Shown here: piece after piece, positions 264 through 21,650 of the stretch
Numbering within the stretch: position 1 is the first letter of the stretch
How the letters are laid out: each line of letters starts with the position of its first letter
NCBI GenBank assembly: GCA_965371665.1
Contig: CBDUZI010000001.1
Coordinates: 9,411-73,410 of the forward strand
Origin: an uncultured bacterium
GTDB taxonomy: Bacteria; Oederibacteriota; JAAXVQ01; JAUVAV01
Direction: 5' to 3'
Length of the DNA: 64,000 nucleotides
The notes under the pieces: generated by a model
Seen by the model: only the letters and a program-made list of their open reading frames with translations
What the model was told of the DNA's origin: nothing
Databases searched by the model: none
Position numbers and translations under genes: made by a program

Positions 264-1571
264 TTTAGCCATTACTTTTTGTTTAGTCTTCCAAGCCTGT
301 TTAAGCACTTTTTCCGGATCAGACTTTCCGATTAAAATGGACTGCATGCCTTTTGAGATCACTTCCCGGACTTCATATTTTTCTTCCATTTTCAGGTCCG
401 GGGTAAGATTTCGCATGCCCTTGGCAAAATCCTTAAGCAAAGGATCAATCTCATCCATGGCTTGGAAATTCGCCGGTATCTGCTTGGATTCCTTGGCCAG
501 CCTGACTTGTTGCTCTTTGGACAAAAACCAGCGTAAAAAGGCTACTGCTTCCTCCGGATTTTCCGAATTGTTGGTCACCGCACAGCCTTTCCCCACCCCG
601 CCGATAAGGTACATGGGATGGGCCGCATCCTCCGGCTTGGGAAAAGGAAAAACACCCAATTCCAGTTCCGAATTCATCTCGAGATAGACATTTACCGCCC
701 AGGAACCATTCAACATCATGGCCGCCTTCTGATTGGCAAAATTGATTTCCGCGTCTTTGTTGGACATGGAAACCGCTCCGGGGTAGAGTATCTTTTTTTT
801 CTGCATATCCACCACGCGCTCGAGAACGCTTACACATCCCGGGTCAGTATAGGGCAAGGTTCCCGAGTATAACTTGCGCATTTTTTCTTCTCCCAGATAA
901 GTCCAGCAATAAGCATTAAAAAAGGTATAATCGATCCAAAGATCTCCGAAGCCCACCAGGAAGGGAGGAATGCCGGCACGGTTAAGCTGATCCCCGGCCT
1001 CCAGGAATTCGTCCCAGGTTGCCGGGGGTTTTTCGGGATCCAGACCGGCTTTTTTGAAAAGCTGCTTATTGTAATATATCTGAATATTCATTACGGAAAT
1101 CGGCACACCCCAGAAGGTATCGGGCTTAACCTCATAGGCATTGCCTTCCTCGTAATGAAACGCTTTTAAGGCCCGCGGAAAAAAGGTGTTACGCCAGGCA
1201 GAAGTATCCGCGTTCAATTTCCCGGTCATTTCATATATTCTTCCAGCCCGAATATAGCGGGCCAGAAGTTCTCCGCCTCCCGCCAAGCCAATGATATCCG
1301 GCAAGGTGTTGGCATTAGCCGAGGCTTGCAGCTTATTAAAGTAATCCGAACCGACCGGCGCCGAGAGTTCGAATGCCACCTTAACCCCGGTCTCTTCCTC
1401 ATATTCCTTGGCCATACTTTCAAACATGGATTGCTGATCCGCCCACCATTCCCAAAAAGTAATTTTTACCTCCCTCTTTTTCTCGGGGTGCTTCCCGCAC
1501 CCGAACAACAAGCCACCTACCATCAAACCGGTCAATGCCAATGTGAACAGTCTACTTCTTTGAAGCTTCAT
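261..1571 (-). CDS. ABC transporter extracellular solute-binding lipoprotein (carbohydrate type, family 1)
   Basis: 436-aa ORF. Lipoprotein signal MKLQRSRLFTLALTGLMVGGLLFGC (lipobox LFGC). Length and motifs (ITFWEWW, IQIYYNKQLFKKAGLDPEKPPATWDEF, MMLNGSWA) are typical of sugar-binding SBPs. Its ATG (1571-1569) overlaps the TGA (1570-1568) of the upstream gene. Confidence 0.9.
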   Translation of the reverse strand: MKLQRSRLFTLALTGLMVGGLLFGCGKHPEKKREVKITFWEWWADQQSMFESMAKEYEEETGVKVAFELSAPVGSDYFNKLQASANANTLPDIIGLAGGGELLARYIRAGRIYEMTGKLNADTSAWRNTFFPRALKAFHYEEGNAYEVKPDTFWGVPISVMNIQIYYNKQLFKKAGLDPEKPPATWDEFLEAGDQLNRAGIPPFLVGFGDLWIDYTFFNAYCWTYLGEEKMRKLYSGTLPYTDPGCVSVLERVVDMQKKKILYPGAVSMSNKDAEINFANQKAAMMLNGSWAVNVYLEMNSELELGVFPFPKPEDAAHPMYLIGGVGKGCAVTNNSENPEEAVAFLRWFLSKEQQVRLAKESKQIPANFQAMDEIDPLLKDFAKGMRNLTPDLKMEEKYEVREVISKGMQSILIGKSDPEKVLKQAWKTKQKVMAK

Positions 1572-4500
1572 TTAATTTCCTCCTTCCAATTATTATTGCC
1601 CACGATATAAAAAACGGTAAAATTCCGCTTTTCCCCAGGCTTTAGAGTGACTTCTTTGCCTAATAGTTCCATGGTATAAAAATTCGAGTCCTGCCAAACA
1701 CCGATTTGACCAATCTCCTCATGCTTGAATAATTGCATAAAATAATCTTTAGTAGCTTGGTTTAGCCCTACCACCCAACCCGCACGCGGTTCATAAGAAT
1801 CTTTATCGATTTTCGCAATAAATTTTTCAGTTACGAACTTGACTCTTTTCTTATTTTCAGGGTCAGAGATTGGCATAATCATCCTATGTTGCTCGTCCGC
1901 AAAATTATTTTTACCCGGAGCAAGATCAGGATGATTGAACCACTGATATTTCATGATGTCACCCGATAAGTTGGTAACTTGATAGTCTACCTGGAGGCGT
2001 CTTCCCTTAGCAGGTAGTATCATAGTTCTTTCGAGAAGGAGCCCCTTGCGGGTTTTAGTATACATTTTAACCGCTGCTTCATTCCCGTCATCAGTTACAA
2101 TCTCCGCCTCCCAATGATTATTCCAAACCACACCAGGCCAGCCCGATGGAAACCAGTCATTTATACCTCCGTATTCAATCCAGTCCCTATCACCTTTACG
2201 TTTCGCTATCTTAGGATAATTTTGATAAAGCATATTAGCACCGGTTTCGCGATGATAAAACGCCATTATTCTCCCGCCAATATCCTGAACGGCTTGAATT
2301 TCCACTTCGGCATTCGCTAAAATGACATCCTCGTCGCCACGCTTCATGATATCACCCATTAACACTTTAGCTTCCCCTTCAACCACAACTGGATATATTA
2401 ATTTAAATCGTTTTATTTCCTGGGGACATCTCAATTCAAAACCAAGGGTTTCTTTTCGAGCTTTCAAAGGCAATATGGAAAACTCCAACAGGACCTCCCC
2501 ACCTTTAGGAACGCTGAAGTTTAATTCTTGCGGTTCTACTTGCAAACCCTTTGAGGGGGTTAACATCACTGTTCCTTGGGTACTCATATTCCCACTAGCA
2601 ATCAGTCGAATAATACCTGTACTTTTCTTACCTTTCACCAGCACTCGTGGTCCTTCGCATGAAATAATTCGCCACACGGGCAAAACTTCAACTTTCTGAG
2701 GTTTAGACTTAAAAAAATTCTTCTTGACTCGAAAACTCGCAATAATGTCATAAGTTTTTTTCTTTTCAAGACTCGGTGGCAAAACAGAAAAAGTAAGTTT
2801 CTTTGTTTTCCCTGTATTTAGGTCCAACTTTTCTTCCTTTTTCCCTTTCCACGCTTTCGGCAGATTTAGCATCACCCTCCCTCTGACTTTTTCCGTGAAG
2901 TTATTCTTTACTTCCACTTCCAGTTTCGTCCATTTTCCCGCAGATACTGCTTGTTGGTCAGTCAGAATATCAACCTCAAAGGGCGAAATAACTTTAACAA
3001 TACCTTGGGATGAAACCGTTTTTACTTTTCTTCCCCGTGGAGTAATGAGTTCTCCTTTCAACCAGATAATATCTCCGGCTTCCGCGGTAGAAGGAATTTG
3101 AAAGGGGAAAACGGTTGAGATCACCTGGCCAGAAGCTAATTGGGGGATAGGACGCGTTTTCAACACGTGCTGAGGAGAAAGTGTGGCATAACCCGCCCGG
3201 GAATTAATCACAGGTTCGTTGCGTTTCACGAGCCATGCGGATAACGCTAAGCGAGCATTAGAAAGCACTTTCTGACTTAAATTCCTCGCTTCCAAACCAA
3301 TCTGAATCTCGGTATTAACTGTTGCACTTAACTTTGAAGCACGTACATTAATAAAATAATCCTGCTTATACTTTGCATTATATTCCATGACATATGTACT
3401 CGCTTCCGTAGCCGCCCCAACAGCATCCGGATAGAAGGAGATCGTCTGGGGTGTAGTTGCCACGAAGGTTATTGGTCTCCCCCCCTGCCGGACAGTAATG
3501 GCTTCATCGAATTTCCATTCCGCAGGACGCGGTAAGGTTAAGAGCGTTTTTTGATATTGCTGCAACTGGATAACCGTGATCCGGTTTTTTTCTCTTTCAA
3601 TGACGAGGTACTGGTCGCCGGTTAAATCAAATCCATAAAGACGGGAAAAGCGGCCGGCTAAAAAGGTCCCGGAATTATTTGTAGCTATAAAACCGTTTTT
3701 AGAAACTGTATGGTTTAATACCTCCAGTTCATGGACATTTGAAATATTCGCCAAAATACCCAGATCAGGATAGGCGGACCAGAAAATCCGGTTGGGCTCC
3801 GGCTGGGAATAATTCAGTAGTGGTTTGCCCACATATTTGGATACGACTCGTTTCTGTAATTGATCCGCCAGGGCAAACCATTTTTTTTGATTATGCCATC
3901 TAGAAACCCAGCGACCATTCAGCATATGGTAGCCATGGGCGAGATACCAGACTATTTTTTCATGACTCTCACAAAATACTTCATGGGCGAGGTCATGATG
4001 AAAAAAACAAACATGTTCGTGACCGAGATACTGCGCTATAGGAAAATATTCCCAGTTCCCTTCTCCGAAAAGGTTATTATAATCCACACTCTCCGGAACG
4101 GTAAAAGAAGCCAAGCCGCTGAAACCGCTCATCATGGGTATCAAGCGATCGTATCCCTGTTCAGTAAACAAAGGACCCAATTTCAGGTATGCTTCACAGT
4201 TTTCATACCAGGCTTGGCAATAACCGATCGGATTTTTTAATGTCGGATTTAAATCAAAATAAATAAAACGCGCACCAATCTGATCCAGGAATAATATATC
4301 GATACCATATTCTTTAAAAAATTTATTCGCAATATGATTCCCGGCTTTGACCACAGCGGGATGGCGAGGCGAAGCCGCCCAGCCTTTTCCGCCGGAAGGA
4401 TAGAATTCATATTTAAGATCATTCTTTAAATCCCGGCTCGCTATCTCTTCCGGACCACCTGCTCTTTCCAATGTCGGACTAATATTCCAGAAAGTCGGAT

Positions 4501-6784
4501 TGGTATAAGGCATAACCACCAGGTCATGCTTCTTGGCCAAAGCAATGCTTTTTTTAAAATCGGCATTCGTCCCAAAGGTCGGATCAACAGGCCAGAAGTC
4601 CGGCATATGCCGATCGAAGCCTTCCAACCACCAAGCTACAAAATGAACAATCGTCCCTTTGGGCAATTCTTTAAAATATTTATTAACATAACGAAAACTG
4701 CGATTCATATCCAAAGAAATTTTCAATAATACCCCTTGCCTAATTTTAGAAAATAAGGTTTTACCCAATTTATCAATCAAAAGCGGAGCCTTGGTCAGCT
4801 TATTGTCTTTTTTAAAACGTCGCAAAGCAGCCTCAACTTTTTCACCAAATACCATTCTCAACGGTTGGCCCTCCCAGCTGGTTTTCGGCTCAATATAGGT
4901 CGTCCAAACGTGTTCATAAACACCACGCCTGCCGCGAGCGTAACCAACATTAATTCGGGTCGATTCGATCGGCTTATCTGCCCAAAGCAGAAAAGAAGAA
5001 AATTGTCCCCCGTCAGTTAAAGACCAGTTGATAAAGTCTGAGAATAAAAAGGGATAAGTCGTTTTCCAACGCCGTTTATTCTTAAAAAATTGCTGATTAA
5101 ATGCTATTCCCATACGCCACGGTAAATAAAATCGTTCAAGTTTTCCATAATCAAAGCTCAACTTGGGCATTTCCACTCCAATAACCGTCTTATCCTCATG
5201 ATTTTGAAATTTGGCATACAAATCAAAGTAGTTATAGTTACTGAACACCAAATTGACAGCCATGACCGAAGAACCTCGTTGGGAGAGCAAACGAAGCGTA
5301 CGGCTACTCTCGATCCATCGATATGAAAATTTTGCTTCCTTATCTGCCAGAAACTCCTCGGAATTGAGAAAGGTTCCTTCTTTAAACATAATCCGCCAAA
5401 GGTAAGCATGTTCAAACCCTAATGAAACTCGGGAATTATTTATCCTATCTGTCAGAGATTCGAAAACCCCGGTTTTGCGGCTCAGAATCACCTGATAATA
5501 CTTATTTTGAATTGTAAGTTGATTTCCGGTTTCAGAAAATCCCGGGGGGCTACTCTCTTGGGAAACCGTTTGGGCCCTATGCTTCTCCCCAAAAACCTTT
5601 TGCAGGCCCCCTTGATCCAGAGATTTTTTTTGCTTTTTATAGGTAACCGGCAATGGTGCTTTAGTATAGGGTTGAGCGGCGATCAGAGACGGAAGCGGTT
5701 GAATTAACTGGGAGGGAACAAAGCCTGCCACCAATTTGATTTTTCTTTTCCCGATAAATTTGACCGAAGAAAACTCGATTTCGTGACCCCTATTAGGCTT
5801 TTTCTCATCCTCGGTTGTAACTCCTAATTTTAATATAAATGTCTGCGGACCTTTTAAATAATTAAACTTCCCAGCTAAATCATAAATATACCTCCCGGGT
5901 TTGGAAATGTACTCTAAGCGATGATACCCTCCGCGAAATTGAGGGCCACTAAAAATCACATACATATTGGCGGTTAAGCGACCAACCTTAATCTCTAATT
6001 TGGGATACTCCTCGAAATCGACTGTCAGCTCTTTGTTTACACAGCCATAGCACTGGTGCGGGTAATCGCCGATTAGCTTGATTTTTTCATCTTCGGTTTT
6101 TTGAAGATGAGCGCCTGAACTCCCGCCATTTTCAGCACGATTACTCCAACCTAAAACGCTGGTTTCCAAGGTGGCCTTTTCTAACGCCGCTTCCTCAGCT
6201 TCTGATAAACCCTTCTGGGCCACCACCTTTATCTTTTTTGCCCTGCTGGAGGATACCAATTTCAAACTGGAAAATGTAAAACTCAATCCTTTATTTGCAG
6301 GACGTTCGGAAGTGGCTATCCCTAATTCCAGACGTATTCTTCGGACCCCATTCAAGCCGGTTGCTTTTCGAATATTGTAAGCTCTTTTCCCGACCGCCTT
6401 GGTTCCTTTTTCGGGCTTAATATAATCATTTTTACTAAAACCATCCTCGATATTAGGATTTTGAATCACTAAATACCAAGCCGCATTACAAGCCGTAACT
6501 TCAATTTCCAAAATAGGATATTTATCCAGGTCCCATTCAATATTCTGATAAACCATACCGTAAAAGAGGCTCGTGGAGGTGCCGATCACCCGGGCCTGGT
6601 TTTCAAAGAGCTTAATCTTAGCGCCGGTTGGGGTGTCGTCAGGCCAGGCCACACGCCAACGTTCCAGCGATTTATGCTTGGCATCGAATAAAACATGAGC
6701 CTTAACCTTGGCCTCCACGTGATTAACCCCCCAGGCAGCGAATATAAAGGCAGTAAATATTATTCCACATAAAAAATTTTTCAT
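1568..6784 (-). CDS. 1738-aa secreted multidomain protein, putative glycan-active enzyme (2 shared modules + TIM-barrel-like block + Ig-like repeats + mutarotase-like C-terminus)
   Basis: AGGAGGG lies 9 nt upstream of the ATG; signal peptide MKNFLCGIIFTAFIFAAWGVNHVEA. Two shared-module copies at about 6697-6229 and 6172-5734 (TVDFEEYPKLEIKVG). Central block at about 4750-3900 with FVAWWLEGFDRHMPDFWP, LVVMPYTNPTFW, ILFLDQIG and FFHHDLAHE, resembling uncharacterised glycoside-hydrolase-like TIM barrels. CARDB/Ig-like repeats at about 3400-2330. Galactose-mutarotase-like block at about 2330-1571 (GGRIMAFYH, EYGGINDWFPSGWPG). The CDS call is strong; confidence in the function is only about 0.4. 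Confidence 0.85.
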   Translation of the reverse strand: MKNFLCGIIFTAFIFAAWGVNHVEAKVKAHVLFDAKHKSLERWRVAWPDDTPTGAKIKLFENQARVIGTSTSLFYGMVYQNIEWDLDKYPILEIEVTACNAAWYLVIQNPNIEDGFSKNDYIKPEKGTKAVGKRAYNIRKATGLNGVRRIRLELGIATSERPANKGLSFTFSSLKLVSSSRAKKIKVVAQKGLSEAEEAALEKATLETSVLGWSNRAENGGSSGAHLQKTEDEKIKLIGDYPHQCYGCVNKELTVDFEEYPKLEIKVGRLTANMYVIFSGPQFRGGYHRLEYISKPGRYIYDLAGKFNYLKGPQTFILKLGVTTEDEKKPNRGHEIEFSSVKFIGKRKIKLVAGFVPSQLIQPLPSLIAAQPYTKAPLPVTYKKQKKSLDQGGLQKVFGEKHRAQTVSQESSPPGFSETGNQLTIQNKYYQVILSRKTGVFESLTDRINNSRVSLGFEHAYLWRIMFKEGTFLNSEEFLADKEAKFSYRWIESSRTLRLLSQRGSSVMAVNLVFSNYNYFDLYAKFQNHEDKTVIGVEMPKLSFDYGKLERFYLPWRMGIAFNQQFFKNKRRWKTTYPFLFSDFINWSLTDGGQFSSFLLWADKPIESTRINVGYARGRRGVYEHVWTTYIEPKTSWEGQPLRMVFGEKVEAALRRFKKDNKLTKAPLLIDKLGKTLFSKIRQGVLLKISLDMNRSFRYVNKYFKELPKGTIVHFVAWWLEGFDRHMPDFWPVDPTFGTNADFKKSIALAKKHDLVVMPYTNPTFWNISPTLERAGGPEEIASRDLKNDLKYEFYPSGGKGWAASPRHPAVVKAGNHIANKFFKEYGIDILFLDQIGARFIYFDLNPTLKNPIGYCQAWYENCEAYLKLGPLFTEQGYDRLIPMMSGFSGLASFTVPESVDYNNLFGEGNWEYFPIAQYLGHEHVCFFHHDLAHEVFCESHEKIVWYLAHGYHMLNGRWVSRWHNQKKWFALADQLQKRVVSKYVGKPLLNYSQPEPNRIFWSAYPDLGILANISNVHELEVLNHTVSKNGFIATNNSGTFLAGRFSRLYGFDLTGDQYLVIEREKNRITVIQLQQYQKTLLTLPRPAEWKFDEAITVRQGGRPITFVATTPQTISFYPDAVGAATEASTYVMEYNAKYKQDYFINVRASKLSATVNTEIQIGLEARNLSQKVLSNARLALSAWLVKRNEPVINSRAGYATLSPQHVLKTRPIPQLASGQVISTVFPFQIPSTAEAGDIIWLKGELITPRGRKVKTVSSQGIVKVISPFEVDILTDQQAVSAGKWTKLEVEVKNNFTEKVRGRVMLNLPKAWKGKKEEKLDLNTGKTKKLTFSVLPPSLEKKKTYDIIASFRVKKNFFKSKPQKVEVLPVWRIISCEGPRVLVKGKKSTGIIRLIASGNMSTQGTVMLTPSKGLQVEPQELNFSVPKGGEVLLEFSILPLKARKETLGFELRCPQEIKRFKLIYPVVVEGEAKVLMGDIMKRGDEDVILANAEVEIQAVQDIGGRIMAFYHRETGANMLYQNYPKIAKRKGDRDWIEYGGINDWFPSGWPGVVWNNHWEAEIVTDDGNEAAVKMYTKTRKGLLLERTMILPAKGRRLQVDYQVTNLSGDIMKYQWFNHPDLAPGKNNFADEQHRMIMPISDPENKKRVKFVTEKFIAKIDKDSYEPRAGWVVGLNQATKDYFMQLFKHEEIGQIGVWQDSNFYTMELLGKEVTLKPGEKRNFTVFYIVGNNNWKEEIK

Positions 6785-7175: not shown

Positions 7176-8129
7176 CTAATATACCAAACCCACCGTAAAG
7201 AATTGAGTACCTCCAAAGCTGTCTGAGCTCCAAGTGGTAACCCGATAGGCATAGTCCAAACGAAAAGTGCACACCCCTATTGCTGTCCGAACACCGACGC
7301 CAAAGGTCATGCCTTCTGTCCCATCCGGGGCCAGGGCATACCCCAGGCGGGCCGCAAAAACACCGGCATAAAAAAATTCGCCTCCCATATGCAAGCTGGT
7401 TTCGGATTCCAGAGTCTGTTCAATATCCAGCGCCACAAAAAATTTTTCCAGTAAGCCTGACAACAAATCATATTTTGCGGAAAGAACAATACGCAGGGGC
7501 AGTGGATCCGCCTCATCGATGAATTTCAGGGGCAGGCCGAGATTTTTTACCGCCAGGCCGACCAGAGCCTCGGGCGCGGCTTCCCAGAGAACGCCGATGT
7601 CCGCCGCAAGGGTATTCGCGGAATATTCTCCCAGCGTGGAATTGAGAAACTTCAAGTTCAACCCGCAGGAGAAACCATCCAAAAATTTTGAGACCGGCCG
7701 GCCCAGGGAGATGATACCCAAAATATCTCTAACCTCAACGGACGACTGGCTGGTGCCGGCATCATTTAAAGACGGCATCCCGTGGTAGACAAAGGTAACT
7801 CCCAGTACTCCGAGGTGTGAGAACGGCATGGCAAAATTCAAGATCTCGGAATAGTCTTCCGCAATTCCGGTCTGATGCGTAAAAAGCCCGCTCACCCTCT
7901 GGACGGATTGCAAACCCGCCGGATTGTAAAATATAATCCCTGGATCGCCTGTTAGGGTACCACCAGCCCCACCCAAGGCACTGGCCCGGGCTGTGTTAGC
8001 CGTCACCAGCAACAGTCCTCCAGATGTATCGGCCGCATCGGCCTGCACCGCCAGGCAGATAACCGACATGCCGGCCACCACCAGACCAGTCGTTAGCATC
8101 AACATTTGAGAAATTCTTTTTGGGCTCAT
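7176..8129 (-). CDS. outer-membrane beta-barrel protein, PorV/PorQ/FadL-like
   Basis: The ORF track gives 7176..8234. The internal ATG at 8129-8127 gives a clean signal peptide (MSPKRISQMLMLTTGLVVAGMSVICLAVQADA) and an ATGA overlap with the stop (8128-8126) of the upstream gene. N-terminal motif ARASALGGAGGTLTGDPGIIFYNPAGL, alternating beta-strand pattern, C-terminal FFTVGLVY (terminal aromatic residue). Confidence 0.75.
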   Translation of the reverse strand: MSPKRISQMLMLTTGLVVAGMSVICLAVQADAADTSGGLLLVTANTARASALGGAGGTLTGDPGIIFYNPAGLQSVQRVSGLFTHQTGIAEDYSEILNFAMPFSHLGVLGVTFVYHGMPSLNDAGTSQSSVEVRDILGIISLGRPVSKFLDGFSCGLNLKFLNSTLGEYSANTLAADIGVLWEAAPEALVGLAVKNLGLPLKFIDEADPLPLRIVLSAKYDLLSGLLEKFFVALDIEQTLESETSLHMGGEFFYAGVFAARLGYALAPDGTEGMTFGVGVRTAIGVCTFRLDYAYRVTTWSSDSFGGTQFFTVGLVY

Positions 8130-9601
8130 TTTACTACCGCTACCCGAATATTCTTCTGGAATCGATTGCTTTCGAGCCTGATGATATAGACACCGCTGGC
8201 GACCCAGTCGCCGTTGGCATTCTTGCCATCCCACCGCACCTGGTCATCCACGGCTCCGGAAGCCGGGCCGTCGACTAAGGTACGTATTTTGCGGCCGGCT
8301 AAATTGTAAACCGTGATCCTCACCCGGCTGGCGTCTTCCGCACCGTAATGAATGGTTAATGACCCTTGCTTGGGCCGGAAGATGTTGGCAGAAGGCCGGA
8401 GTTCATTCACACCAACGATGGGCGTAGGGGTAGCGGTTGGCGGTTGGCTGGTTATCTCCAAGCAGTCGAATCCGAGCTTATCGCCATCGGCACTGCCGAT
8501 CCAGATAACAACGCGGAAAGTCTTTATCCCCGACCAACCGGTCGCAGAGGCATAATCGTAAACCAGAACCCCGGGCTGGGTAAGATTCGGAGACAAGGCG
8601 TGATAGTCTGTGCCATCATAAACATTGAGTAATTGGATTGTGGCCTGCGCGCTGCCTTCAGGCTCCACGGAATCCACCGTGGCAATGAAATACGGAAAGG
8701 CCGTTACATCCGTGGTAATAGGAGCGCTTTCCATCTTGTGCTCGCCCGTACCGGTAAAGGTCACCCAGCCGATGCCGGCTTGCGCATCCAGTTGCACGTT
8801 CGTCAACGTCCAATCGCTGGGAGGATCAAAATCCTCCACCCAGCCATTATTGACTCCAGTCGGTGTCGATGTTGGAGTATAAGATGTTGGAGTATAAGTA
8901 GCACTGTTTGTCGAAGTAGGTGTTATAGTTGGCGTATCTGTCATAGTCCAATCCGGAGTCTGAGTGGATGTGGGGCTCTTGGTTGGGCTGTCCGTAGGTG
9001 AACAGACCATAGTTTCCGTGGGAGTGGGTGATACTGTCGGCGTTGCGGTGGGGGTATAATCCACGTCATAAATGCGGACCGAATCAAAAGTAGCATAACA
9101 CCACTGCGGGCCGTACACTTTAAGCACAAAATAATAGAGCTGCGTTCCACTTTCTCCAGTAACCGAAGAAATATTATAGGAATAGGTGCCGGGTACGGTG
9201 GGAGTGCCAAACACAAAATATTCCCAGGTGGGCTTCTGCAGGGCTATTTCCACCTTGGTCGTACCCGCCTGGATGTCGCTGATGACGACCTCCATCCTGT
9301 TATATGTGCTTAAATCCACTGATTTAGTAATCGATGTGACATATCCGGCTCCGTCCATGCCGGTGACGGTAATATCTGCGTAACTGTCGCTCTGGCTATA
9401 AACCATCTCTGCCGGATTCGGCCCGCCGCCCCGGTCCGTGACATCGAACCAGCTTCCGGGCTTTTCTCCGGGCGTGCCGCCGGTAAAATCATCCATCCAG
9501 AGATTTGTTGCCTGGACCAAAGCAGCTGCACTCAGGCAAAGCCACCCGGCAGCCAGCCCTATCCGGCTGACCCGCAAAAAAGTACGTCCCCCTCTATGCA
9601 T
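8126..9601 (-). CDS. secreted protein: 2 shared modules, Pro/Thr-rich linker, C-terminal FlgD-Ig / T9SS-type sorting-like domain
   Basis: GGGGA lies 7 nt upstream of the ATG; signal peptide ..GLAAGWLCLSAAALVQA. Modules at about 9499-9061 and 8851-8446. PT linker at about 9070-8880 (TPTATPTVSPTPTE...TPTSYTPTSTPTG). The last 90 aa or so (8400-8129), RVRITVYNLAGRKIRTLVDG..VRWDGKNANGDWVASGVYIIRLESNRFQKNIRVAVVK, match the FlgD-Ig/Por-secretion-tail pattern. Confidence 0.8.
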   Translation of the reverse strand: MHRGGRTFLRVSRIGLAAGWLCLSAAALVQATNLWMDDFTGGTPGEKPGSWFDVTDRGGGPNPAEMVYSQSDSYADITVTGMDGAGYVTSITKSVDLSTYNRMEVVISDIQAGTTKVEIALQKPTWEYFVFGTPTVPGTYSYNISSVTGESGTQLYYFVLKVYGPQWCYATFDSVRIYDVDYTPTATPTVSPTPTETMVCSPTDSPTKSPTSTQTPDWTMTDTPTITPTSTNSATYTPTSYTPTSTPTGVNNGWVEDFDPPSDWTLTNVQLDAQAGIGWVTFTGTGEHKMESAPITTDVTAFPYFIATVDSVEPEGSAQATIQLLNVYDGTDYHALSPNLTQPGVLVYDYASATGWSGIKTFRVVIWIGSADGDKLGFDCLEITSQPPTATPTPIVGVNELRPSANIFRPKQGSLTIHYGAEDASRVRITVYNLAGRKIRTLVDGPASGAVDDQVRWDGKNANGDWVASGVYIIRLESNRFQKNIRVAVVK

Positions 9602-9611: not shown

Positions 9612-12600
9612 CTAGAAAGTTACGGTTACCTGGGCCCAGACAGCGTTCTGACCCCAGTTTTTTTCATTTTCAAAAGGAAAATAAACTTTGTTCATTTCGC
9701 CATGCAGCCGTATGTAACCCCCGGCTAAATCCCGCAGCAGACCCACGGCCAGTTTGTCGCGTATCTCCTCCGCTTGTCCGTGTTTAGACATGCAGGAAAT
9801 TTCGCGACCGAAATCTAAGGAAAATTTATATTCATTGAAAAACAGCACCGAGTTTTGCAGGTAAAGCCCGTGGAAGATAGGTACATCCCAGTTCTCGTCC
9901 GGTTCATACCCCTGCGGCAAATAATAGGTATTGTGAATCGGGGCACTCGCATTGGCCTGCCTCCCGCCGAACCGACCGATATAGACTGGCTGCATGGCAA
10001 AGACCTCTTCCAGCAGATAATGCTTATAGCGGATATCCACCGTAGCTAAGTTGCCGTAATACCTCCTGCGTTCTCTATCCAGCTCCTGGTCCAGCCGGAA
10101 GCGATCCAAGAGAGTCATTTTCAATCCAAAGGGAGCATTGTATATAACTTTCAGCTCAGGAGTCACGGTTAAATTGTCGGTGTAATCCAAGGTGAGCGGG
10201 ATTTCCTCGTCATTGGCTGTGTAAAGGGCGTACTGATCCGAGATATCGTCTCGGATTCTCGCCCCATAAGCGCCGACTTCAAACACCCAATCGTCAATAT
10301 CTGTATTCTTATACTTTAGGGTCAAGGATACGGATTGGTTTCTGCCAGGCTTGGAAAGCCGTTTGATATAATGTCCGTCCAAGCGTATTTCCATATTAGA
10401 AGCATAAGTACCTTCCAACACCTGGCGAGGAATAATCGCCGAAAAGGAATATCCTCTTTGATCGCGACGATAAGGATAATCCGGCTCGTGGTCGTTTTCC
10501 CGGCTGTCAAGGATACCGTTGTGATTCAAATCCTCGCTTTCGTGGAAAAGGTAATCCTGCGGAATGTACAGACCGTTGACGTATTCCTGACTAGGCTGGC
10601 CCAGATTGTAAAAATCACCGAAAATGACCCCGTTTTTTTCCGTATCCCAGTCCGGAAGAAGCGCACAACTGTCATTATCCTCCACCACGTCATAATTCAG
10701 CAGCTTGGTGGAATAATCCTTAGACAAGTTGAAATAACTAGCCTTTAAAAGCGCACCCTCGATCCCGCGGGAAAGGGTAACGAAATAGGCATTGGCCATA
10801 CGGTTCACGCGGTCGCCAGTATAAGCTTGATTGTGCGCGATGGAAACTGCGTATTCGGCTGCCAGGTTGATGCCTAAAAGCTGGCCGCGTAAATCCGCTC
10901 CGAGTATGGAGCACGCCTGCGTACCTTCGTCCCTAAAGGTCCCGCTTTTCAGCCTCTCCAGCTGGTCTGCCGTAAGGGTATAGTCAACATCCACTACAGG
11001 CTCATGCGTTGTAAATGTGCTGTAACTTTCAATTAGCCGCCAGTTTTCGCCGTCCGAAGAAATACTGAAATCGATAGTGCCATCATCGGGGATATGCCAA
11101 CAGCTAAGCTCCAGGTGTCCGGAAACGGCTTGTATCTGGGAAGGTAGCACGCGTCCTCCGCTGTTGGCGCCTGTGGTTAGAACCAAGGGAACTCTTAAGA
11201 CCAGGTAACCGCCCTCATTGATACCCCGGGCGGCATTGTTCGGGTCGGTGTCGATCAGGTCTATGTAGGTGTTACTTTGGTCGGAGACGTATGCTATACT
11301 ACTGTCATCAACATCCGGGCTGAAATCCGGTGATATTGGATTTCCGGCAGAATTGGCGATGGTCATGTAATTAGTGTCTTCTGTCTTGAAATAAAGATTG
11401 GATTCATTGGGATGGGTGGTGTTGGTGGTATGATTCTCGATTTTAACGTAAACCGAAGGTACGAAATTTTGATAAACCTCGGGCGGCTCGTCTGGGCCCA
11501 TGAACAGGTTAGTATCCATCTCGCCGTTGCTTTTGGATAAATTGACGGCCGAAAGACCAAGCTGCACCGTGCCGATCCGGATGGAGAAATTCTTGGCCGC
11601 ACGCAGGCCGGTCATGAAAACGTTGGTTTTATTATAATCGCTACTGGAGGATGACAGCCGGGTTCCAAACAGCTTGAAACATATGTCCCCAAGCTTCGGC
11701 TGCCAGAGAATGCCTCGAAAAGTAGAGGCTTTCTTAAAAGTCAGGTCCGTGAACAGTGGTTCGTAAACCGTACCGAGCTGGGCCATATTTCCGATGTATA
11801 AATCCTGATATCTCAACAAGCCATAGTCGAGCTGGGGAGTAAGATAGCGGCCAGCTGGTTCTTCCCAGCGGACGTTATTTTTCTCGTTGATTATGTCGTA
11901 GCCCAAAGAGGCCCAGATATCGACATTTTCAAAAGGGTGAATATAGGAAATTAAATAAAATTTTTGCGTAATTTCATTGAACCCGATATCCTTCAAAGGG
12001 ATACCCCAGCGGTTCAGTCCGGTCCAGTCCTCGTTTTTGGCCACGCCGTCCAGCCACATAGCACGATAGGTTTGATAGGCTACGCCAGAAATTTTGAGAA
12101 TATCCGCATCTTTGGCAGGTGCAATGGCCTCGGGTTTCACTCCCGGGATTGGTAGCATAATCCCCTGGGCTGTCGCCATCTTGCTGGAGAAGCCGATGGC
12201 ATTTAAGGCAACTTGAGTGCCAGCGCCTTCCAGAAAAAACTCAATAAAAAAAGTCTGCTCAGTTTTCCAGCCTGTGAGATCAGGCACATTGGCCATATAG
12301 ACGCCGGCTCGGGAGAAGCGGGGAGTAATTATACGAAAATTATCCGGATTGCGGGCATGAATCAAATGCACCCTTACTTTTCCACGTTCTAATTCACGTC
12401 CCAATTCGATCTCCAAATAGGGATACTTGGAAAAATCCACGGTCAAAGGTTTTTTCGGAGACAAAAATCTGCCATATGTCACCTTTTCTTTTAATTTCAG
12501 CAGGATTTCCCCACCCTTTTGAACCTTTGCAATGGTATTCAAGCCCTTTTCAATTGAATTATCACGCCAGCCATTCAAACCTTTTGCCCAATTCTCAAAA

Positions 12601-13226
12601 TACTTATAAGATTTTGATTTATCTCCTCTAAAATCCTTTTTAACTTTTCGAGCCCCTTTGGCCAATAGACTTTTAGCGACTTTGGATTTTTCAGACTTTG
12701 CCAAACTCTGCGCAGGCTTATTGACCAGTGCCAGACCTTCCCCGATTCGCAACTGGGAAACCTTTGCCTCAGCACCAGAGCCTCCCAACCAGAGGGTGAC
12801 CCAGAAATCTTTAATTTCTTTCCACGGCGTTGATTTCATGATGCTCACGCTGTAGATTCCGGGTTGGGTAATTCCATTCAAAATCTTATACCCGGCATAA
12901 GGCCGATGCGCGTCCATAAGCTCCACGTCCATCGAGCCGTCCTCACTTATCTCATCTATAATAATCTGAAGAACCAAGCCAGAGGTAATATTCATGGCAA
13001 TGGCTTTTTCAGGAGTCATAACCTTACCATACTCGAAGCTGCCCGGCACAGAGATCAAGGCCTGTTTCTCATGCCTCTCCAGCAGCGCATGGAAGTCGGG
13101 ATTGGTCCGGTTATCCCGCCAACCCTTAAACTCGGCTTGGTAAAAATCCTGTACCGCCAACGAGGGAATAACCGATATCACTAAGGCTAGCAGCAGAAAA
13201 CATGTGCCGAAACGAAACTGCTTCAT
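9612..13226 (-). CDS. 1204-aa outer-membrane protein: 2 N-terminal shared modules + very large C-terminal beta-barrel-like region
   Basis: AGGAGGGGAGAG lies directly upstream of the ATG; signal peptide MKQFRFGTCFLLLALVISVIPSLA. Modules at about 13151-12735 (FKGWRDNRTNPDF) and 12608-12189 (TVDFSKYPYLEIELG), joined by a Lys-rich linker. The remaining 850 aa or so are rich in alternating aromatic/polar strands and end in NAVWAQVTVTF (a C-terminal Phe, as in OMP signatures). Confidence 0.8.
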   Translation of the reverse strand: MKQFRFGTCFLLLALVISVIPSLAVQDFYQAEFKGWRDNRTNPDFHALLERHEKQALISVPGSFEYGKVMTPEKAIAMNITSGLVLQIIIDEISEDGSMDVELMDAHRPYAGYKILNGITQPGIYSVSIMKSTPWKEIKDFWVTLWLGGSGAEAKVSQLRIGEGLALVNKPAQSLAKSEKSKVAKSLLAKGARKVKKDFRGDKSKSYKYFENWAKGLNGWRDNSIEKGLNTIAKVQKGGEILLKLKEKVTYGRFLSPKKPLTVDFSKYPYLEIELGRELERGKVRVHLIHARNPDNFRIITPRFSRAGVYMANVPDLTGWKTEQTFFIEFFLEGAGTQVALNAIGFSSKMATAQGIMLPIPGVKPEAIAPAKDADILKISGVAYQTYRAMWLDGVAKNEDWTGLNRWGIPLKDIGFNEITQKFYLISYIHPFENVDIWASLGYDIINEKNNVRWEEPAGRYLTPQLDYGLLRYQDLYIGNMAQLGTVYEPLFTDLTFKKASTFRGILWQPKLGDICFKLFGTRLSSSSSDYNKTNVFMTGLRAAKNFSIRIGTVQLGLSAVNLSKSNGEMDTNLFMGPDEPPEVYQNFVPSVYVKIENHTTNTTHPNESNLYFKTEDTNYMTIANSAGNPISPDFSPDVDDSSIAYVSDQSNTYIDLIDTDPNNAARGINEGGYLVLRVPLVLTTGANSGGRVLPSQIQAVSGHLELSCWHIPDDGTIDFSISSDGENWRLIESYSTFTTHEPVVDVDYTLTADQLERLKSGTFRDEGTQACSILGADLRGQLLGINLAAEYAVSIAHNQAYTGDRVNRMANAYFVTLSRGIEGALLKASYFNLSKDYSTKLLNYDVVEDNDSCALLPDWDTEKNGVIFGDFYNLGQPSQEYVNGLYIPQDYLFHESEDLNHNGILDSRENDHEPDYPYRRDQRGYSFSAIIPRQVLEGTYASNMEIRLDGHYIKRLSKPGRNQSVSLTLKYKNTDIDDWVFEVGAYGARIRDDISDQYALYTANDEEIPLTLDYTDNLTVTPELKVIYNAPFGLKMTLLDRFRLDQELDRERRRYYGNLATVDIRYKHYLLEEVFAMQPVYIGRFGGRQANASAPIHNTYYLPQGYEPDENWDVPIFHGLYLQNSVLFFNEYKFSLDFGREISCMSKHGQAEEIRDKLAVGLLRDLAGGYIRLHGEMNKVYFPFENEKNWGQNAVWAQVTVTF

Positions 13227-13272: not shown

Positions 13273-14313
13273 TTAATTTCGGATGTGAATATATTTGATG
13301 CCCGCCCCGGCCTCGGTCTCCGGAGCTCCGGTAGTTCCCATCCAAATTTGAATCCAAAAAACTTTAGCGCCTCTCCATTTGGTCTTTTCGTTAATATTTA
13401 CCGTATATACCCCAGGGCGGGTAACAAAAGGCATGAGAGTGTAGTTAGTGTAAGGTGCCTGCGCAAGCATAAGTTCAACTTTTACTTTGCTCGTCCCCAT
13501 ATCCCCAAAAGCAATCTCAAATTTTGTGGAAGGGGTAATCTTGGCTTTAATCCCGCTTGAATCTGACATCAACTTACAATATTTTCTGCCAGGAATTATT
13601 TTTAGCCGCGGAACATCTCCTTCAAAATTCAACTCACTCCCGAATTCCGGGTCGGTTTCAGCCGTTCTCCACCCCCCAACTCCATTCCTGAAATCTTCAA
13701 AAAAGATACTGTTTGGGGGCATAGGCGCAAACTTTTTCAAGGTAAACGCTTTTATGGCCGCCAGCTTTCTTTGTTTTTCTAAAATATTAGCATCCTGAAA
13801 AAAAACCTCCTTGATAATCACACTTTTTTTTTCACCTTCCAGCCAGACCTTGATCCACATGCTGGTAACACCCTTCCAGCCTGTCAACTCATGAACATTT
13901 GCTTTATATTCTCCTGATTTTCCTTGAAGTTTGGCAACCCGATAGGAATTATAAGGTTCATAAGCATGCATTAAATAAACCGTTGCTATTGTGTCCGGAG
14001 CAATTCGGTCAACCTTGATGACAATCTCGGTTTTCCGGGTAATATTAATGGTAATCGGGTCGGCTTTTGACATCGCTTTACCGTAGGCCACGTTAGGGGT
14101 CGAAATCTTTAGTCTTCTTCCCTGTACCTGTACCTGCGTATTAAAACCAAGATCAGTAGAATTATCCCGCCAATTTTTAAAGTCTTCCTGATAGACAATC
14201 CCTAACCCTTCATTATCATTACTTTTTTTTGCGAATGAAGTCCGAAGAAGTAAGAAGGAAAAAAGCATCACTATAATAATAGTCGGACAAAAAAACATTT
14301 TTGAAGGGTGCAT
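13273..14313 (-). CDS. secreted protein made of two shared modules
   Basis: The ORF track starts at 14349. The ATG at 14313 has AAAGGAAA 6 nt upstream and gives the signal peptide MHPSKMFFCPTIIIVMLFSFLLLRTSFA. Modules at about 14205-13794 (DFKNWRDNSTDLGF ... TGWKGVTSMWIKVWLEG) and 13706-13276. Confidence 0.8.
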   Translation of the reverse strand: MHPSKMFFCPTIIIVMLFSFLLLRTSFAKKSNDNEGLGIVYQEDFKNWRDNSTDLGFNTQVQVQGRRLKISTPNVAYGKAMSKADPITINITRKTEIVIKVDRIAPDTIATVYLMHAYEPYNSYRVAKLQGKSGEYKANVHELTGWKGVTSMWIKVWLEGEKKSVIIKEVFFQDANILEKQRKLAAIKAFTLKKFAPMPPNSIFFEDFRNGVGGWRTAETDPEFGSELNFEGDVPRLKIIPGRKYCKLMSDSSGIKAKITPSTKFEIAFGDMGTSKVKVELMLAQAPYTNYTLMPFVTRPGVYTVNINEKTKWRGAKVFWIQIWMGTTGAPETEAGAGIKYIHIRN

Positions 14314-14442
14314 ACAAATTTCCTTTCTCAAAACTAAATTTGGAGACAAACCGACTATTAGGGAGTTGTCCCGAATGGTACTAACTTAAGAGTTTTATTT
14401 GGCATTATCACTAATTTACGTAATTAAATTTAAAATCACAAT

Positions 14443-14705: not shown

Positions 14706-15329
14706 TTATTTTTTTACTTTTTCAGCGCTTTTTACTTTTACCTTACTTTTTACTTTGTCACTTTTCTTCTTTATTCTACTTTTCTTCTTAATTTTACTTT
14801 TTCTTCCTTTTTCCTTTGCGACTATTTTTTTGCCATCTGTAATGCATACATCCGATATCTTCGCAACGGGATTTTCCTCCCCGCCTATCCAGATTTCTAT
14901 CCAAAAAGTATGTTCCTCCTGCCCCGGCCATGGCGTCTTTTCAGCCAGCTTCGCGGTATAAACTCCTTTGTCACTTGCTTCGGCAATGAGTTTATGGGAA
15001 TCATAAGGGTCACCAGCTGTCATAAGTTTAACTGTAATGGAGCCTTGGGAAATATCATCAAGCAATTTCAGGGAAAGCTCTGTGTTTTCTTCGATATTAA
15101 TTGTAATTCCAGCTTCAGATGACATAACCTTTCCAATTTTTTTCTCAGGAATAGCAGTTATAATCCCGATTTCATTCTTCTCATCCAATTCAAACTTGGC
15201 CTTAAATCCTGGATTGGTACTCTCATCGCGCCAATCGGAGAAATCATCCTTATACAAATTTTTTCCCTGCACAGAAGCAACGATACCCAGAGCGAATACA
15301 GCCGTTAAAAATACTTTTAAAAATTTCAT
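14706..15329 (-). CDS. secreted single-module protein with poly-Lys C-terminal tail
   Basis: GGGGAGGGAAG upstream of the ATG; signal peptide MKFLKVFLTAVFALGIVASVQG. One module at about 15260-14835 (DFSDWRDESTNPGF ... HTFWIEIWIGGEENPVAKISDVCI). Tail at 14834-14709: KEKGRKSKIKKKSRIKKKSDKVKSKVKVKSAEKVKK. Confidence 0.8.
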   Translation of the reverse strand: MKFLKVFLTAVFALGIVASVQGKNLYKDDFSDWRDESTNPGFKAKFELDEKNEIGIITAIPEKKIGKVMSSEAGITINIEENTELSLKLLDDISQGSITVKLMTAGDPYDSHKLIAEASDKGVYTAKLAEKTPWPGQEEHTFWIEIWIGGEENPVAKISDVCITDGKKIVAKEKGRKSKIKKKSRIKKKSDKVKSKVKVKSAEKVKK

Positions 15330-18556: not shown

Positions 18557-18591
18557 CGTTATCACCCCGGTCCAGCCGGAACCAAAAATGC

Positions 18592-20478: not shown

Positions 20479-20492
20479 AAAAAGCCTTTTCA

Positions 20493-21549: not shown

Positions 21550-21650
21550 GGCATAATCTCCCCACAAAAATTTCTAAGCTGAAACTTTATTAAAAAACCA
21601 GGAAGTACGTAAGTCGAATCAGTCTTACGCACTTCCCGGTTAAAGAGAAA

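What the first reader, a model, noticed from the sequence alone, without database searches (positions are those of the whole stretch)
9612..13226. 1204-aa outer-membrane protein combining two shared modules with an unusually large barrel-like region
After the signal peptide come two modules separated by a Lys-rich linker. The remaining 850 aa or so have strand-like periodicity, many Tyr/Asp/Asn/Gly turns and an OMP-type C-terminus (VTVTF). That size is in the LptD/BamA/usher range, yet I see no POTRA, LptD or usher motifs. It may be the outer-membrane conduit or docking site for the module-bearing proteins or for exported parts of the giant protein.
Basis: inference. Interest (0 to 1): 0.5.

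Follow-up and report, generated by a model that had tools for sequence, protein, structure and literature searches.

The report
Large SlpA-like outer-membrane barrel with shared modules
This gene encodes a real, very large outer-membrane beta-barrel protein of an uncultured bacterial phylum (FCPU426); it belongs to an unstudied barrel family that sits, in several phyla, next to surface sugar-binding proteins, small PorV-type barrels and a proton-driven motor, so it is probably the outer-membrane gate of a nutrient-capture system and has no special link to the neighbouring giant gene.

Summary
The ORF is real but lies on the minus strand (9612-13226, 1204 aa). It has a strong ribosome-binding site, a signal peptide and a C-terminal beta-signal (…VTVTF). 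It has full-length orthologues of 44-57% identity in candidate division FCPU426.

- **Modules:** two ~145-aa modules (aa 25-170 and 206-350) are joined by a Lys-rich linker. Five neighbouring genes share them, and the giant gene does so transitively.
- **Context:** the string 1-module protein, 2-module protein, barrel, CTD protein, PorV-like barrel, sugar ABC permeases, DUF6259 enzyme and binding protein recurs in five other FCPU426 contigs, usually after TPR-ExbB-ExbD-ExbD-TonB.
- **Distant relatives:** these barrels (17-20% identity; Latescibacteria, Elusimicrobia and others) keep CTD proteins, PorV-like barrels, a ~1100-aa TPR protein and ExbBD beside them.
- **Giant gene:** it is not conserved next to the barrel.

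Best reading: the outer-membrane channel of an energised glycan capture and uptake system. An export or anchoring role remains possible.

The parts
9612..13226 (-). Whole gene: 1204-aa outer-membrane protein (stop codon at 9612-9614)
   Evidence: ORF list and translation; full-length orthologues at 44-57% identity
13227..13238 (-). Shine-Dalgarno-like AGGAGGGGAGAG directly upstream of the ATG
   Evidence: Sequence read
13155..13226 (-). Signal peptide, aa 1-24 (…IPSLA then VQ)
   Evidence: Read from the translation; a hydrophobic N-terminus is conserved in the family consensus. Inference; not scored with a predictor.
12717..13154 (-). Module 1, aa 25-170: beta-sandwich, best-predicted part of the full-length model (pLDDT about 77-89)
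   Evidence: phmmer and HMM matches to paralogous modules; AF2 secondary structure
12612..12716 (-). Lys-rich linker, aa 171-205; predicted disordered; not conserved in sequence among orthologues
12177..12611 (-). Module 2, aa 206-350
9615..12176 (-). Beta-barrel region, aa 351-1204: about 26 long antiparallel strands (the first six or so at low confidence)
10977..11456 (-). Beta-rich domain, aa ~591-750, inserted between barrel strands 9 and 10 (an odd-to-even loop, so inferred to be extracellular)
   Evidence: DSSP of the model; the same region is conserved in distant relatives (SDDSP…G, …DY.I… motifs)
10461..10724 (-). Acidic loop, aa ~835-922, with DNDxxxxxPD and D-x-N-x-N-G-x-x-D-x-R-E-N-D-x-x-P-D-Y-x-Y motifs; the most conserved part of the wider family; inferred Ca2+-binding
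   Evidence: D850 N851 D852 D859 D899 D907 D916 (full-protein numbering) are invariant across 40 sequences at 17-20% identity. This stretch plus the four strands before it and the strand after it is what matches Pfam SlpA_C.
9615..9644 (-). C-terminal beta-signal, …AVWAQVTVTF
   Evidence: F invariant
14706..15329 (-). Partner: 207-aa secreted protein with one module and a Lys-rich tail
   Evidence: orthologues of 176-188 aa occupy the same position in relatives
13273..14349 (-). Partner: 358-aa secreted protein with two modules, the same layout as the barrel protein's N-terminus
8126..9601 (-). Partner: 491-aa protein with two divergent modules, Pro/Thr linkers and a T9SS type A C-terminal sorting domain; starts 10 nt after the barrel gene
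   Evidence: TIGR04183 27.4 bits (cut-off 23) and FlgD_ig 30.1 bits (cut-off 27); module hits
7176..8234 (-). Partner: PorV/PorQ-family small barrel. The true start is probably the ATG at 8129, which gives 317 aa and abuts the preceding stop codon.
   Evidence: NF033709 117.5 bits (cut-off 90); orthologues of 314-315 aa. The start site is an inference.
1568..6784 (-). Partner: 1738-aa secreted DUF6259 / NPCBM_assoc / DUF5107 protein, glycosidase-like, with two N-terminal modules
   Evidence: conserved downstream of the barrel in relatives
261..1571 (-). Partner: sugar-type ABC solute-binding protein
   Evidence: SBP_bac_1 E 1.9e-38

Best explanation
The gene encodes a large outer-membrane beta-barrel of about 26 strands. 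Its barrel is a distant relative of the SlpA-type barrels of Deinococcus-Thermus. In place of SlpA's SLH domain and coiled coil it has two ~145-aa beta-sandwich modules of a family shared with its operon partners.

I propose that it is the outer-membrane channel of a conserved, polysaccharide-utilisation-like surface system:
1. Surface proteins that carry binding-type beta-sandwich domains and a T9SS-type C-terminal domain are held at the surface by a cognate PorV/PorQ-like barrel and capture a glycan.
2. The DUF6259 enzyme cuts the glycan.
3. The products cross the outer membrane through this barrel, possibly energised by the adjacent ExbB-ExbD-ExbD-TonB/TPR set.
4. The co-transcribed ABC transporter takes them across the inner membrane.

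Shown here: the gene, its architecture, the predicted barrel fold, the SlpA similarity and the conserved gene neighbourhood.

Inferred: the direction of transport, the substrate, any dependence on TonB, the side of the membrane on which the N-terminal modules sit, and the oligomeric state.
For: Fold:
- AF2 model at pLDDT 74.8, pTM 0.69.
- Pfam SlpA_C matches 9 of 10 family members, best E 5.6e-11.
- The terminal F of the beta-signal is invariant.

Operon in FCPU426:
- In L003/L004, L006, L007, L010 and L011 the order is 1-module protein, 2-module protein, barrel, CTD protein, PorV-like barrel, two ABC permeases, DUF6259 enzyme, solute-binding protein. Gaps are a few to tens of nucleotides, and ExbB-ExbD-ExbD-TonB lies directly upstream.

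Distant relatives also sit in glycan loci:
- L015 has a LacI regulator, three PF10091 glucanase-like genes, a GH3, and CBM11/CBM30 proteins next to the barrel.
- L012 has a DUF6259 enzyme next to the barrel.

In 78 metagenome loci of the distant clade:
- 33 of 38 testable loci have a CTD protein within two genes upstream of the barrel.
- 28 of 36 have a ~1100-aa TPR protein directly downstream.
- 9 of 12 have ExbB/ExbD.
- Of 11 CTD partners scanned, 8 carry an F5/8 type C (galactose-binding-like) domain and none a recognised catalytic domain. That fits binding partners better than enzyme cargo.

An analogous proposal exists for Fibrobacter: an unidentified beta-barrel importing cellodextrins with an ExbB/ExbD/TonB operon (PMC6851124).
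Against: - No TonB box or plug domain was found, so TonB dependence would need a new mechanism.
- The partners that never fail to co-occur are CTD proteins and PorV-like barrels, which are secretion-system parts. Glycosidases and ABC genes were seen in only 2 of the 4 distant loci whose genes carry Pfam labels.
- In the window itself the TPR-ExbBD-TonB block is not adjacent, and the permeases lie elsewhere.
- SlpA itself is thought to be a scaffold rather than a pore (PMC9388160).
- The N-terminal six or so strands of the model are at low confidence, and I could not inspect the coordinates for barrel closure or pore occlusion.
Confidence: 0.4

Rival explanations
1. Export or anchoring platform. 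The barrel is a compact translocon or docking site for the neighbouring CTD-bearing and module-bearing proteins. It would work with the PorV-like barrel as shuttle or anchor, the large TPR protein in the role of SprE/PorW, and ExbBD as the motor in the role of GldLM/PorLM. That would make it a T9SS-like pathway without SprA.
For: - CTD proteins are the most constant neighbours: 33 of 38 testable metagenome loci, all 4 distant loci with annotation, and all FCPU426 loci.
- PorV-like barrels are frequent neighbours. The order barrel, CTD protein, PorV-like recurs in FCPU426, L012 and L015.
- TPR plus ExbBD lie next to the barrels.
- The module occurs in many proteins that carry Por_Secre_tail, so it is normally extracellular.
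- Foldseek on the full-length model lists SprA among its hits.
- The 1738-aa enzyme has no CTD and would need some route out if it acts outside the cell.
Against: - No sequence similarity to SprA/Sov or to any T9SS core protein.
- Secretion machinery is rarely encoded inside substrate-specific operons together with ABC importers and a LacI regulator.
- 8 of 11 scanned CTD partners carry a lectin-like domain and none a recognised catalytic domain.
- FCPU426 and Latescibacteria may well have a canonical T9SS elsewhere; this was not tested.
Confidence: 0.25
2. Structural outer-membrane protein or tether, like SlpA or OmpM. It would be an abundant scaffold barrel, perhaps trimeric, whose periplasmic N-terminal modules bind a wall or periplasmic polymer in place of SLH domains. 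The adjacent ExbBD-TonB, TPR and PorV-OmpA genes would then be a Tol-Pal-like envelope-integrity set.
For: - The closest solved structure and the only Pfam match are SlpA.
- With an even strand count, the N-terminus of the barrel is periplasmic, as in SlpA and OmpM. This follows from general OMP topology.
- Conserved acidic loops recall the metal sites that stabilise SlpA (PMC9388160).
- One to three tandem paralogues in the distant clade would fit a hetero-oligomer.
- The upstream genes (an OmpA-domain fusion, a TPR protein with YfiO-like hits, ExbB/TolQ-like, ExbD/TolR-like) resemble envelope housekeeping genes.
Against: - No SLH domain and no coiled coil.
- The module is otherwise found in T9SS-type extracellular proteins.
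- The gene is tightly co-operonic with a sugar ABC importer and a glycosidase-like enzyme.
- Distant relatives have no N-terminal extension at all.
Confidence: 0.12
3. Lpt-like bridge. The shared modules of the small soluble proteins (one and two modules), of the barrel's N-terminus and of inner-membrane or large proteins stack head-to-tail across the periplasm. They would hand a substrate to or from the barrel, as LptC, LptA and the N-terminal domain of LptD do for the 26-stranded LptD.
For: - The same module occurs in a ~185-aa soluble protein, a ~350-aa soluble protein and at the N-terminus of a ~26-strand barrel, all adjacent and conserved.
- The module also occurs in extracytoplasmic parts of the membrane-embedded giant protein.
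Against: - No sequence match to the OstA/LptA/LptD families.
- The non-barrel Foldseek hits of the full-length model are closed jelly-roll sandwiches, not the open Lpt groove.
- The module is common in T9SS cargo, that is, in extracellular proteins.
- There is no direct evidence for module-module contacts.
Confidence: 0.07
4. One reading: the barrel is the outer-membrane exit or docking site for exported parts of the adjacent 12,729-aa giant protein.
For: - The two genes lie in the same window.
- The giant carries module-like repeats and its own SecY and SecA domains, so parts of it are exported across the inner membrane.
Against: - No giant gene lies within 10 kb of any orthologue.
- Homologues of the giant's N-terminal part are separate ~1150-1380-aa proteins in relatives.
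- A 1.2-kb non-coding gap separates the two gene strings in the window.
Confidence: 0.04

Closest known systems
SlpA of Deinococcus radiodurans / Thermus (Pfam SlpA_C, PF21620; PDB 7zgx, 8ae1) and the wider SlpA/OmpM connector proteins
   Same: - A very large single-chain outer-membrane beta-barrel with a C-terminal beta-signal.
- A local Pfam SlpA_C match in 9 of 10 family members.
- Acidic, probably metal-binding, loop insertions.
- An N-terminal non-barrel region that precedes the barrel.
   Different: - About 26 predicted strands, against 28-30 in SlpA.
- No SLH domain and no coiled-coil stalk. Two novel beta-sandwich modules take their place.
- The target scores below the Pfam cut-off (27.2 against 35 bits).
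- Profile searches of the PDB sequences do not reach SlpA.
- The gene context is a sugar-import and CTD/PorV locus, not a cell-wall tether context.
SusC/SusD-type polysaccharide utilisation loci and TonB-dependent transporters (functional analogy)
   Same: - An operon that combines an outer-membrane barrel, surface binding proteins, a large glycosidase-like enzyme and an inner-membrane sugar importer.
- ExbB-ExbD-TonB genes lie next to it.
   Different: - No Plug, TonB_dep_Rec or TonB-box signatures.
- A larger barrel (about 26 strands against 22).
- The binding partners are CTD-anchored proteins paired with PorV-like barrels, not SusD lipoproteins.
Type IX secretion: SprA translocon, PorV shuttle, CTD cargo, and PorQ-PorZ or PorP/SprF-type B CTD pairs
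   Same: - The neighbours pass the curated cut-offs for a T9SS type A sorting domain and for the PorV/PorQ family.
- The adjacency of a CTD protein and a PorV-like barrel mirrors cognate anchor pairs in T9SS (from established knowledge of T9SS).
- A large TPR protein and a MotA/ExbB-type motor lie nearby.
   Different: - The barrel is half the size of SprA (about 26 against 36 strands) and has no sequence match to it.
- No PorK, PorL, PorM or PorN genes are seen in the loci read.
LptD
   Same: - A predicted ~26-strand barrel preceded by N-terminal beta-sandwich domains that are homologous to small soluble proteins encoded nearby.
- LptD is among the structural hits.
   Different: - No LptD or OstA family match.
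- The context is sugar import, not LPS assembly.

Membership tests
SlpA / SlpA_C barrel family (PF21620) | Match to the SlpA_C profile at or above Pfam's gathering score (35 bits) | tested here: inconclusive
   The target scores 27.2 bits, E 1.6e-6, over profile positions 233-332 of 656 only. 9 of 10 family members match, best E 5.6e-11, and 6 homologues carry a precomputed PF21620 hit.
SlpA / SlpA_C barrel family (PF21620) | Large (28-30 strand) outer-membrane beta-barrel fold | tested here: met
SlpA/OmpM OM-cell-wall connectors | N-terminal SLH domain | tested here: not met
   No SLH hit in Pfam or NCBIfam at E up to 0.1-1.
SlpA/OmpM OM-cell-wall connectors | Coiled-coil stalk between the N-terminal domain and the barrel | tested here: not met
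   The AF2 secondary structure shows two beta-sandwich modules and a disordered Lys-rich linker, with no long helix.
SlpA/OmpM OM-cell-wall connectors | Homotrimer | not testable with these tools
   No multimer prediction was available.
TonB-dependent transporters | Plug domain (PF07715), TonB_dep_Rec barrel (PF00593), TonB box | tested here: not met
   No Pfam or NCBIfam match. The N-terminus after the signal peptide is VQDFYQAEFKGWRD, which is not TonB-box-like when read by eye.
LptD | OstA/LptD N-terminal domain and LptD C-terminal barrel profiles | tested here: not met
BamA/TamA (Omp85) | POTRA repeats and the Bac_surface_Ag barrel | tested here: not met
   No match.
Chaperone-usher ushers | Usher profile (PF00577) with plug and N/C-terminal domains | tested here: not met
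T9SS translocon SprA/Sov | SprA profiles; a ~2400-aa, 36-strand barrel | tested here: not met
Type V autotransporters | 12-16-strand autotransporter barrel profile with an N-terminal passenger | tested here: not met
   No Pfam match. The barrel is far larger.

The most novel reading that the evidence does not exclude
This barrel family is the outer-membrane core of an undescribed, proton-motive-force-driven envelope machine. The machine would comprise one to three large barrels, a ~1100-aa TPR protein, ExbB and two ExbD, a PorV-like barrel, and lectin-type proteins with T9SS-style C-terminal domains. It is found in FCPU426, Latescibacteria, Elusimicrobia and other uncultured lineages.

It would be one of two things:
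- a new class of plug-less, TonB-system-linked glycan importers that use CTD-anchored binding proteins as their SusD equivalents; or
- a compact T9SS-like exporter that works without SprA and PorKLMN.

In FCPU426 the barrel has additionally captured two copies of the system's own binding module.
Probability: 0.3. Interest if true: 0.8.

Novelty: new variant of a known kind. Interest (0 to 1): 0.58.

Why it matters
How large glycans cross the outer membrane outside Bacteroidota and Proteobacteria is poorly known. For Fibrobacter, an unidentified beta-barrel working with ExbBD-TonB has been postulated (PMC6851124).

Here a large, unannotated barrel family is tied by conserved gene order, across several uncultured phyla, to four things:
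- lectin-type proteins with T9SS-style tails;
- PorV-like barrels;
- a giant TPR protein;
- an ExbBD motor.

That gives a concrete, testable candidate for such a gate, or for a T9SS-independent route for CTD proteins. It also extends the SlpA-type barrel beyond its role as a wall connector. Every member with a source name is called 'hypothetical protein', so annotation pipelines miss the family entirely.

Tried and rejected
- **PDB sequence searches:** the protein alone and profiles A1 and A2 gave no meaningful hit. The SlpA relation therefore rests on Pfam and on fold comparison.
- **Full-length AF2 model:** with only 10 sequences it was poor (pLDDT 56, pTM 0.38). I used it only for the module secondary structure and a first Foldseek pass.
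- **Homologue search with A2:** The search for homologous proteins returned only the close family, so that search was wasted.
- **afdb50 fold library:** not available.
- **Metagenome scan with A2:** I repeated it with 12 sequences of the distant clade (A3).
- **Module family:** Pfam and NCBIfam gave no family for the 207-aa and 358-aa module proteins. The 1738-aa enzyme has no solved relative by sequence.
- **Literature:** searches for FCPU426 and for T9SS/PorV outside Bacteroidota found no description of this protein or locus.
- **Rfam:** nothing in the window.
- **Rejected as family assignments:** TonB-dependent transporter, LptD, BamA, usher, SprA and autotransporter, because no defining signature was found (see the membership table).
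- **Rejected as partner:** the giant protein as obligate partner.


Full report
**1. The observation**

The stated interval holds a single 1204-codon ORF, but on the minus strand. The plus-strand translation is broken by many stops, while the minus strand reads through from an ATG at 13226 to a stop at 9612-9614. AGGAGGGGAGAG lies directly upstream of the ATG.

The product starts with a typical signal peptide (MKQFRFGTCFLLLALVISVIPSLA, then VQ; read by eye). It ends in AQVTVTF, and the final F is invariant among homologues. A search of 5.8 billion proteins found only ten relatives. All are 1202-1239 aa long, are 44-57% identical over 99-100% of the length, and come from candidate division FCPU426 or unnamed bacteria. 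Only 4 of 185,579 species genomes hold the gene. It is therefore a real, conserved and rare gene.

**2. Anatomy**

Residues 25-170 and 206-350 are two copies of one ~145-aa module (phmmer E 1.4e-11 between them). The same module occurs:
- twice in the 358-aa protein encoded just upstream, and once in the 207-aa protein before that (E 1e-21 to 1e-27);
- in diverged form in the 491-aa and 352-aa neighbours, and more weakly in the 1738-aa one;
- transitively in the giant protein, which the 1738-aa protein's modules hit.

The linker between the two copies has 11 Lys in 42 residues, but it is not conserved as such in orthologues. The module has no Pfam or NCBIfam family.

An exhaustive HMMER search of 1.84 billion cluster representatives found 171 hits. 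About 110 of the 150 listed are module-only proteins, often with several copies (up to 4789 aa). Three of seven such proteins scanned carry a T9SS sorting tail.

**3. The barrel**

The full-length AF2 model was poor (pLDDT 56). It did show two beta-sandwich modules followed by long hairpins. Its best Foldseek hits were D. radiodurans SlpA (E 3e-8), then MtrB, SprA, LptD and FimD.

I remodelled aa 351-1204 with an alignment that includes 28 distant relatives. This gave pLDDT 74.8 and pTM 0.69. DSSP of that model shows:
- about 26 strands of 10-17 residues in a strict hairpin meander;
- short turns after even-numbered strands and long loops after odd-numbered ones, which is the pattern of a transmembrane barrel;
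- a beta-rich domain (aa ~591-750) inserted between strands 9 and 10;
- a long acidic loop (aa ~835-922) between strands 13 and 14.

The first six or so strands are at low confidence.

By standard barrel geometry, 26 strands give a C-alpha diameter near 45-50 Å. That figure is an inference, and loops or the insert may narrow the pore.

**4. Family relations**

Pfam gives one hit, SlpA_C. It is below threshold in the target (27.2 against 35 bits), but it is present in 9 of 10 family members (best E 5.6e-11). The matched stretch covers four strands, the acidic loop and the strand after it.

No SLH, coiled coil, POTRA, LptD, usher, Plug/TonB receptor, SprA or autotransporter signature was found.

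About 35 more distant barrels align to the central part of the barrel. They are 660-1020 aa long, 17-20% identical and have no Pfam family. They share invariant acidic motifs, DNDDxDxxPD and DxNNNGxxDxRENDxxPDYPY. I read these as thrombospondin-type-3-like calcium sites; this is an inference. SlpA has metal sites in its insertions (PMC9388160).

The named members come from Elusimicrobia, Latescibacteria and a Pirellulaceae bin, and all are labelled 'hypothetical'. These distant relatives start the barrel right after the signal peptide. The two N-terminal modules are therefore an FCPU426-specific addition. Their layout copies the adjacent 358-aa protein.

**5. Gene context in FCPU426**

Five other FCPU426 contigs carry orthologues at 46-55% identity. 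They share this order, with very short gaps:

| Position | Gene |
|---|---|
| 1 | PorV-OmpA fusion |
| 2 | ~1000-aa TPR protein |
| 3 | ~300-aa protein |
| 4-7 | ExbB, ExbD, ExbD, TonB |
| 8 | ~185-aa one-module protein |
| 9 | ~350-aa two-module protein |
| 10 | the barrel |
| 11 | 612-686-aa module protein with a CTD |
| 12 | 314-aa PorV-like barrel |
| 13-14 | two ABC permeases |
| 15 | ~1730-aa DUF6259 enzyme |
| 16 | solute-binding protein |

In the window, the 491-aa neighbour passes the curated cut-off for a T9SS type A sorting domain. The next gene passes the cut-off for the PorV/PorQ family.

The window differs from its relatives in three ways:
- the TPR-ExbBD-TonB block is replaced by a 352-aa two-module protein;
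- the two permeases lie next to the giant gene;
- a 1.2-kb non-coding gap separates those genes from the string that contains the barrel.

**6. Gene context of distant relatives**

Four annotated loci:
- L012: DUF6259 enzyme, barrel, a second barrel, CTD protein, PorV-like barrel.
- L013 (Elusimicrobia): several PorV-like barrels and CTD proteins around the barrel.
- L014: F5/8C-CTD proteins and three barrels.
- L015: a LacI-regulated locus with three PF10091 glucanase-like genes, a GH3, CBM11/CBM30-CTD proteins and a PorV-like barrel.

A metagenome scan with the distant clade found at least 383 loci, of which 78 were read. Local ORF calling and HMM searches gave the following:

| Feature | Loci with it / loci with enough flanking sequence |
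|---|---|
| CTD protein within two genes upstream of the barrel | 33 / 38 |
| PorV-like barrel within two genes upstream | 12 / 38 |
| ~1100-aa TPR protein directly downstream | 28 / 36 |
| ExbB/ExbD further downstream | 9 / 12 |

Each locus has one to three tandem barrel paralogues. Pfam confirmed TPR (with YfiO-like hits), DUF5683, ExbB, two ExbD and DUF4159 in L070. Of 11 CTD partners scanned, 8 carry an F5/8 type C lectin-type domain and none a recognised catalytic domain.

**7. The giant gene**

The 12,729-aa ORF contains SecY, SecA DEAD and SecA P-loop domains and a GH5 domain. Giant genes with SecA domains have been described (bioRxiv 10.1101/2023.11.21.568195).

It is not found next to any orthologue of the barrel. 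The only homologues found for its N-terminal GH5+module part are stand-alone proteins of 1137-1379 aa. One is annotated as a T9SS type A cargo of FCPU426, and another lies about 100 kb from the barrel on the same contig. The barrel is therefore not specifically a partner of the giant protein.

**8. Mechanism**

The most economical reading is an outer-membrane channel in a polysaccharide-utilisation-like system:
1. Lectin-type surface proteins, anchored through CTD/PorV-like pairs, capture a glycan.
2. The DUF6259 enzyme cuts it.
3. The products enter through the barrel, perhaps with energy from the ExbBD-TonB/TPR set.
4. The ABC system imports them.

I give this 0.40.

The main rival, at 0.25, is that the barrel exports or anchors the CTD and module proteins in a compact T9SS-like way. 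CTD and PorV-like genes are its most constant neighbours. A SlpA-like structural role (0.12), an Lpt-like module bridge (0.07) and the giant-protein conduit (0.04) are less likely.

Still open: the direction of transport, the substrate, TonB dependence, the oligomeric state, and the side of the membrane on which the modules sit.

**9. Novelty**

The fold class is known and SlpA is a detectable relative, so this is not a new kind of protein. Three things are new:
- the architecture: a novel module twice, then a ~26-strand SlpA-like barrel with an inserted domain and acidic loops;
- the family, which is unannotated;
- the conserved association with CTD proteins, PorV-like barrels, a TPR protein and ExbBD across phyla, which I did not find described in the literature searched.

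I rate it a new variant of a known kind, with moderate to high interest.

Noticed in passing
window 25663-63852 (-): The 12,729-aa ORF carries SecY (E 6.5e-40, aa 2062-2373), SecA_DEAD, a SecA P-loop domain and an N-terminal GH5 cellulase domain. It also has module-like repeats and, read by eye, many membrane-spanning stretches. Giant genes with SecA domains are described in bioRxiv 10.1101/2023.11.21.568195. In that preprint SecYEG is mentioned only as separate genes (its one mention of SecY), so an embedded SecY may be unusual.
   Followed up: partly
L017-L094 (metagenome loci), e.g. L070 3696-20236: A conserved operon in marine and sediment metagenomes. Order: one to three F5/8C proteins with a CHU_C/FlgD_ig tail, an optional PorV-like barrel, one to three tandem large barrels of this family, a ~1100-aa TPR protein, DUF5683, a ~143-aa protein, ExbB, ExbD, ExbD, DUF4159. 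At least 383 loci exist.
   Followed up: partly
window 16787-18565 (-) and 18676-19626 (-): A second CTD/PorV pair. A 316-aa protein has a weak T9SS-type tail (TIGR04183, 18.5 bits, below cut-off). It is followed by a 592-aa fusion of a PorV-like barrel (NF033709, 67 bits, below the 90-bit cut-off) with a C-terminal OmpA peptidoglycan-binding domain. The same pair recurs in L011.
   Followed up: partly
window 7176-8234 (-) vs 8126-9601 (-): The listed PorV-like ORF (GTG start, 352 aa) overlaps the upstream gene by 109 nt. An internal ATG at 8129 gives 317 aa, abuts the upstream stop codon and matches the 314-315 aa of the orthologues. The annotated start is probably too far upstream.
   Followed up: partly
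window 22317-23495: A 1.2-kb stretch with no ORF of 100 aa or more (the longest is 84 aa) and no Rfam match. It lies between the giant-gene/permease unit and the gene string that contains the barrel. It is probably a promoter or regulatory region and marks the site of a rearrangement relative to other FCPU426 genomes.
   Followed up: partly
window 19720-22316 (-): Three secreted proteins of 221, 328 (Fn3-like fn3_5 domain) and 261 aa with no clear family. By eye, the 261-aa protein looks like a PapD-type chaperone and the 221-aa protein like a small pilin or coat subunit.
   Followed up: no
window 1568-6784 (-): A 1738-aa DUF6259 / NPCBM_assoc / DUF5107 protein with two N-terminal modules. It has no solved relative by sequence. 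A DUF6259 enzyme is also adjacent to a distant barrel relative in L012, so DUF6259 may be the catalytic partner of this system.
   Followed up: partly
distant barrel relatives P0063, P0079, P0097, P0103, P0116, P0130, P0132 and others: Many distant family members have a conserved mature N-terminus: A, then QFL(N/S/T)R…YENYG, directly after the signal peptide. An N-terminal Gln fits the Bacteroidota-type 'Q-rule', which I recall from memory. The conserved peptide could be a periplasmic interaction motif.
   Followed up: no
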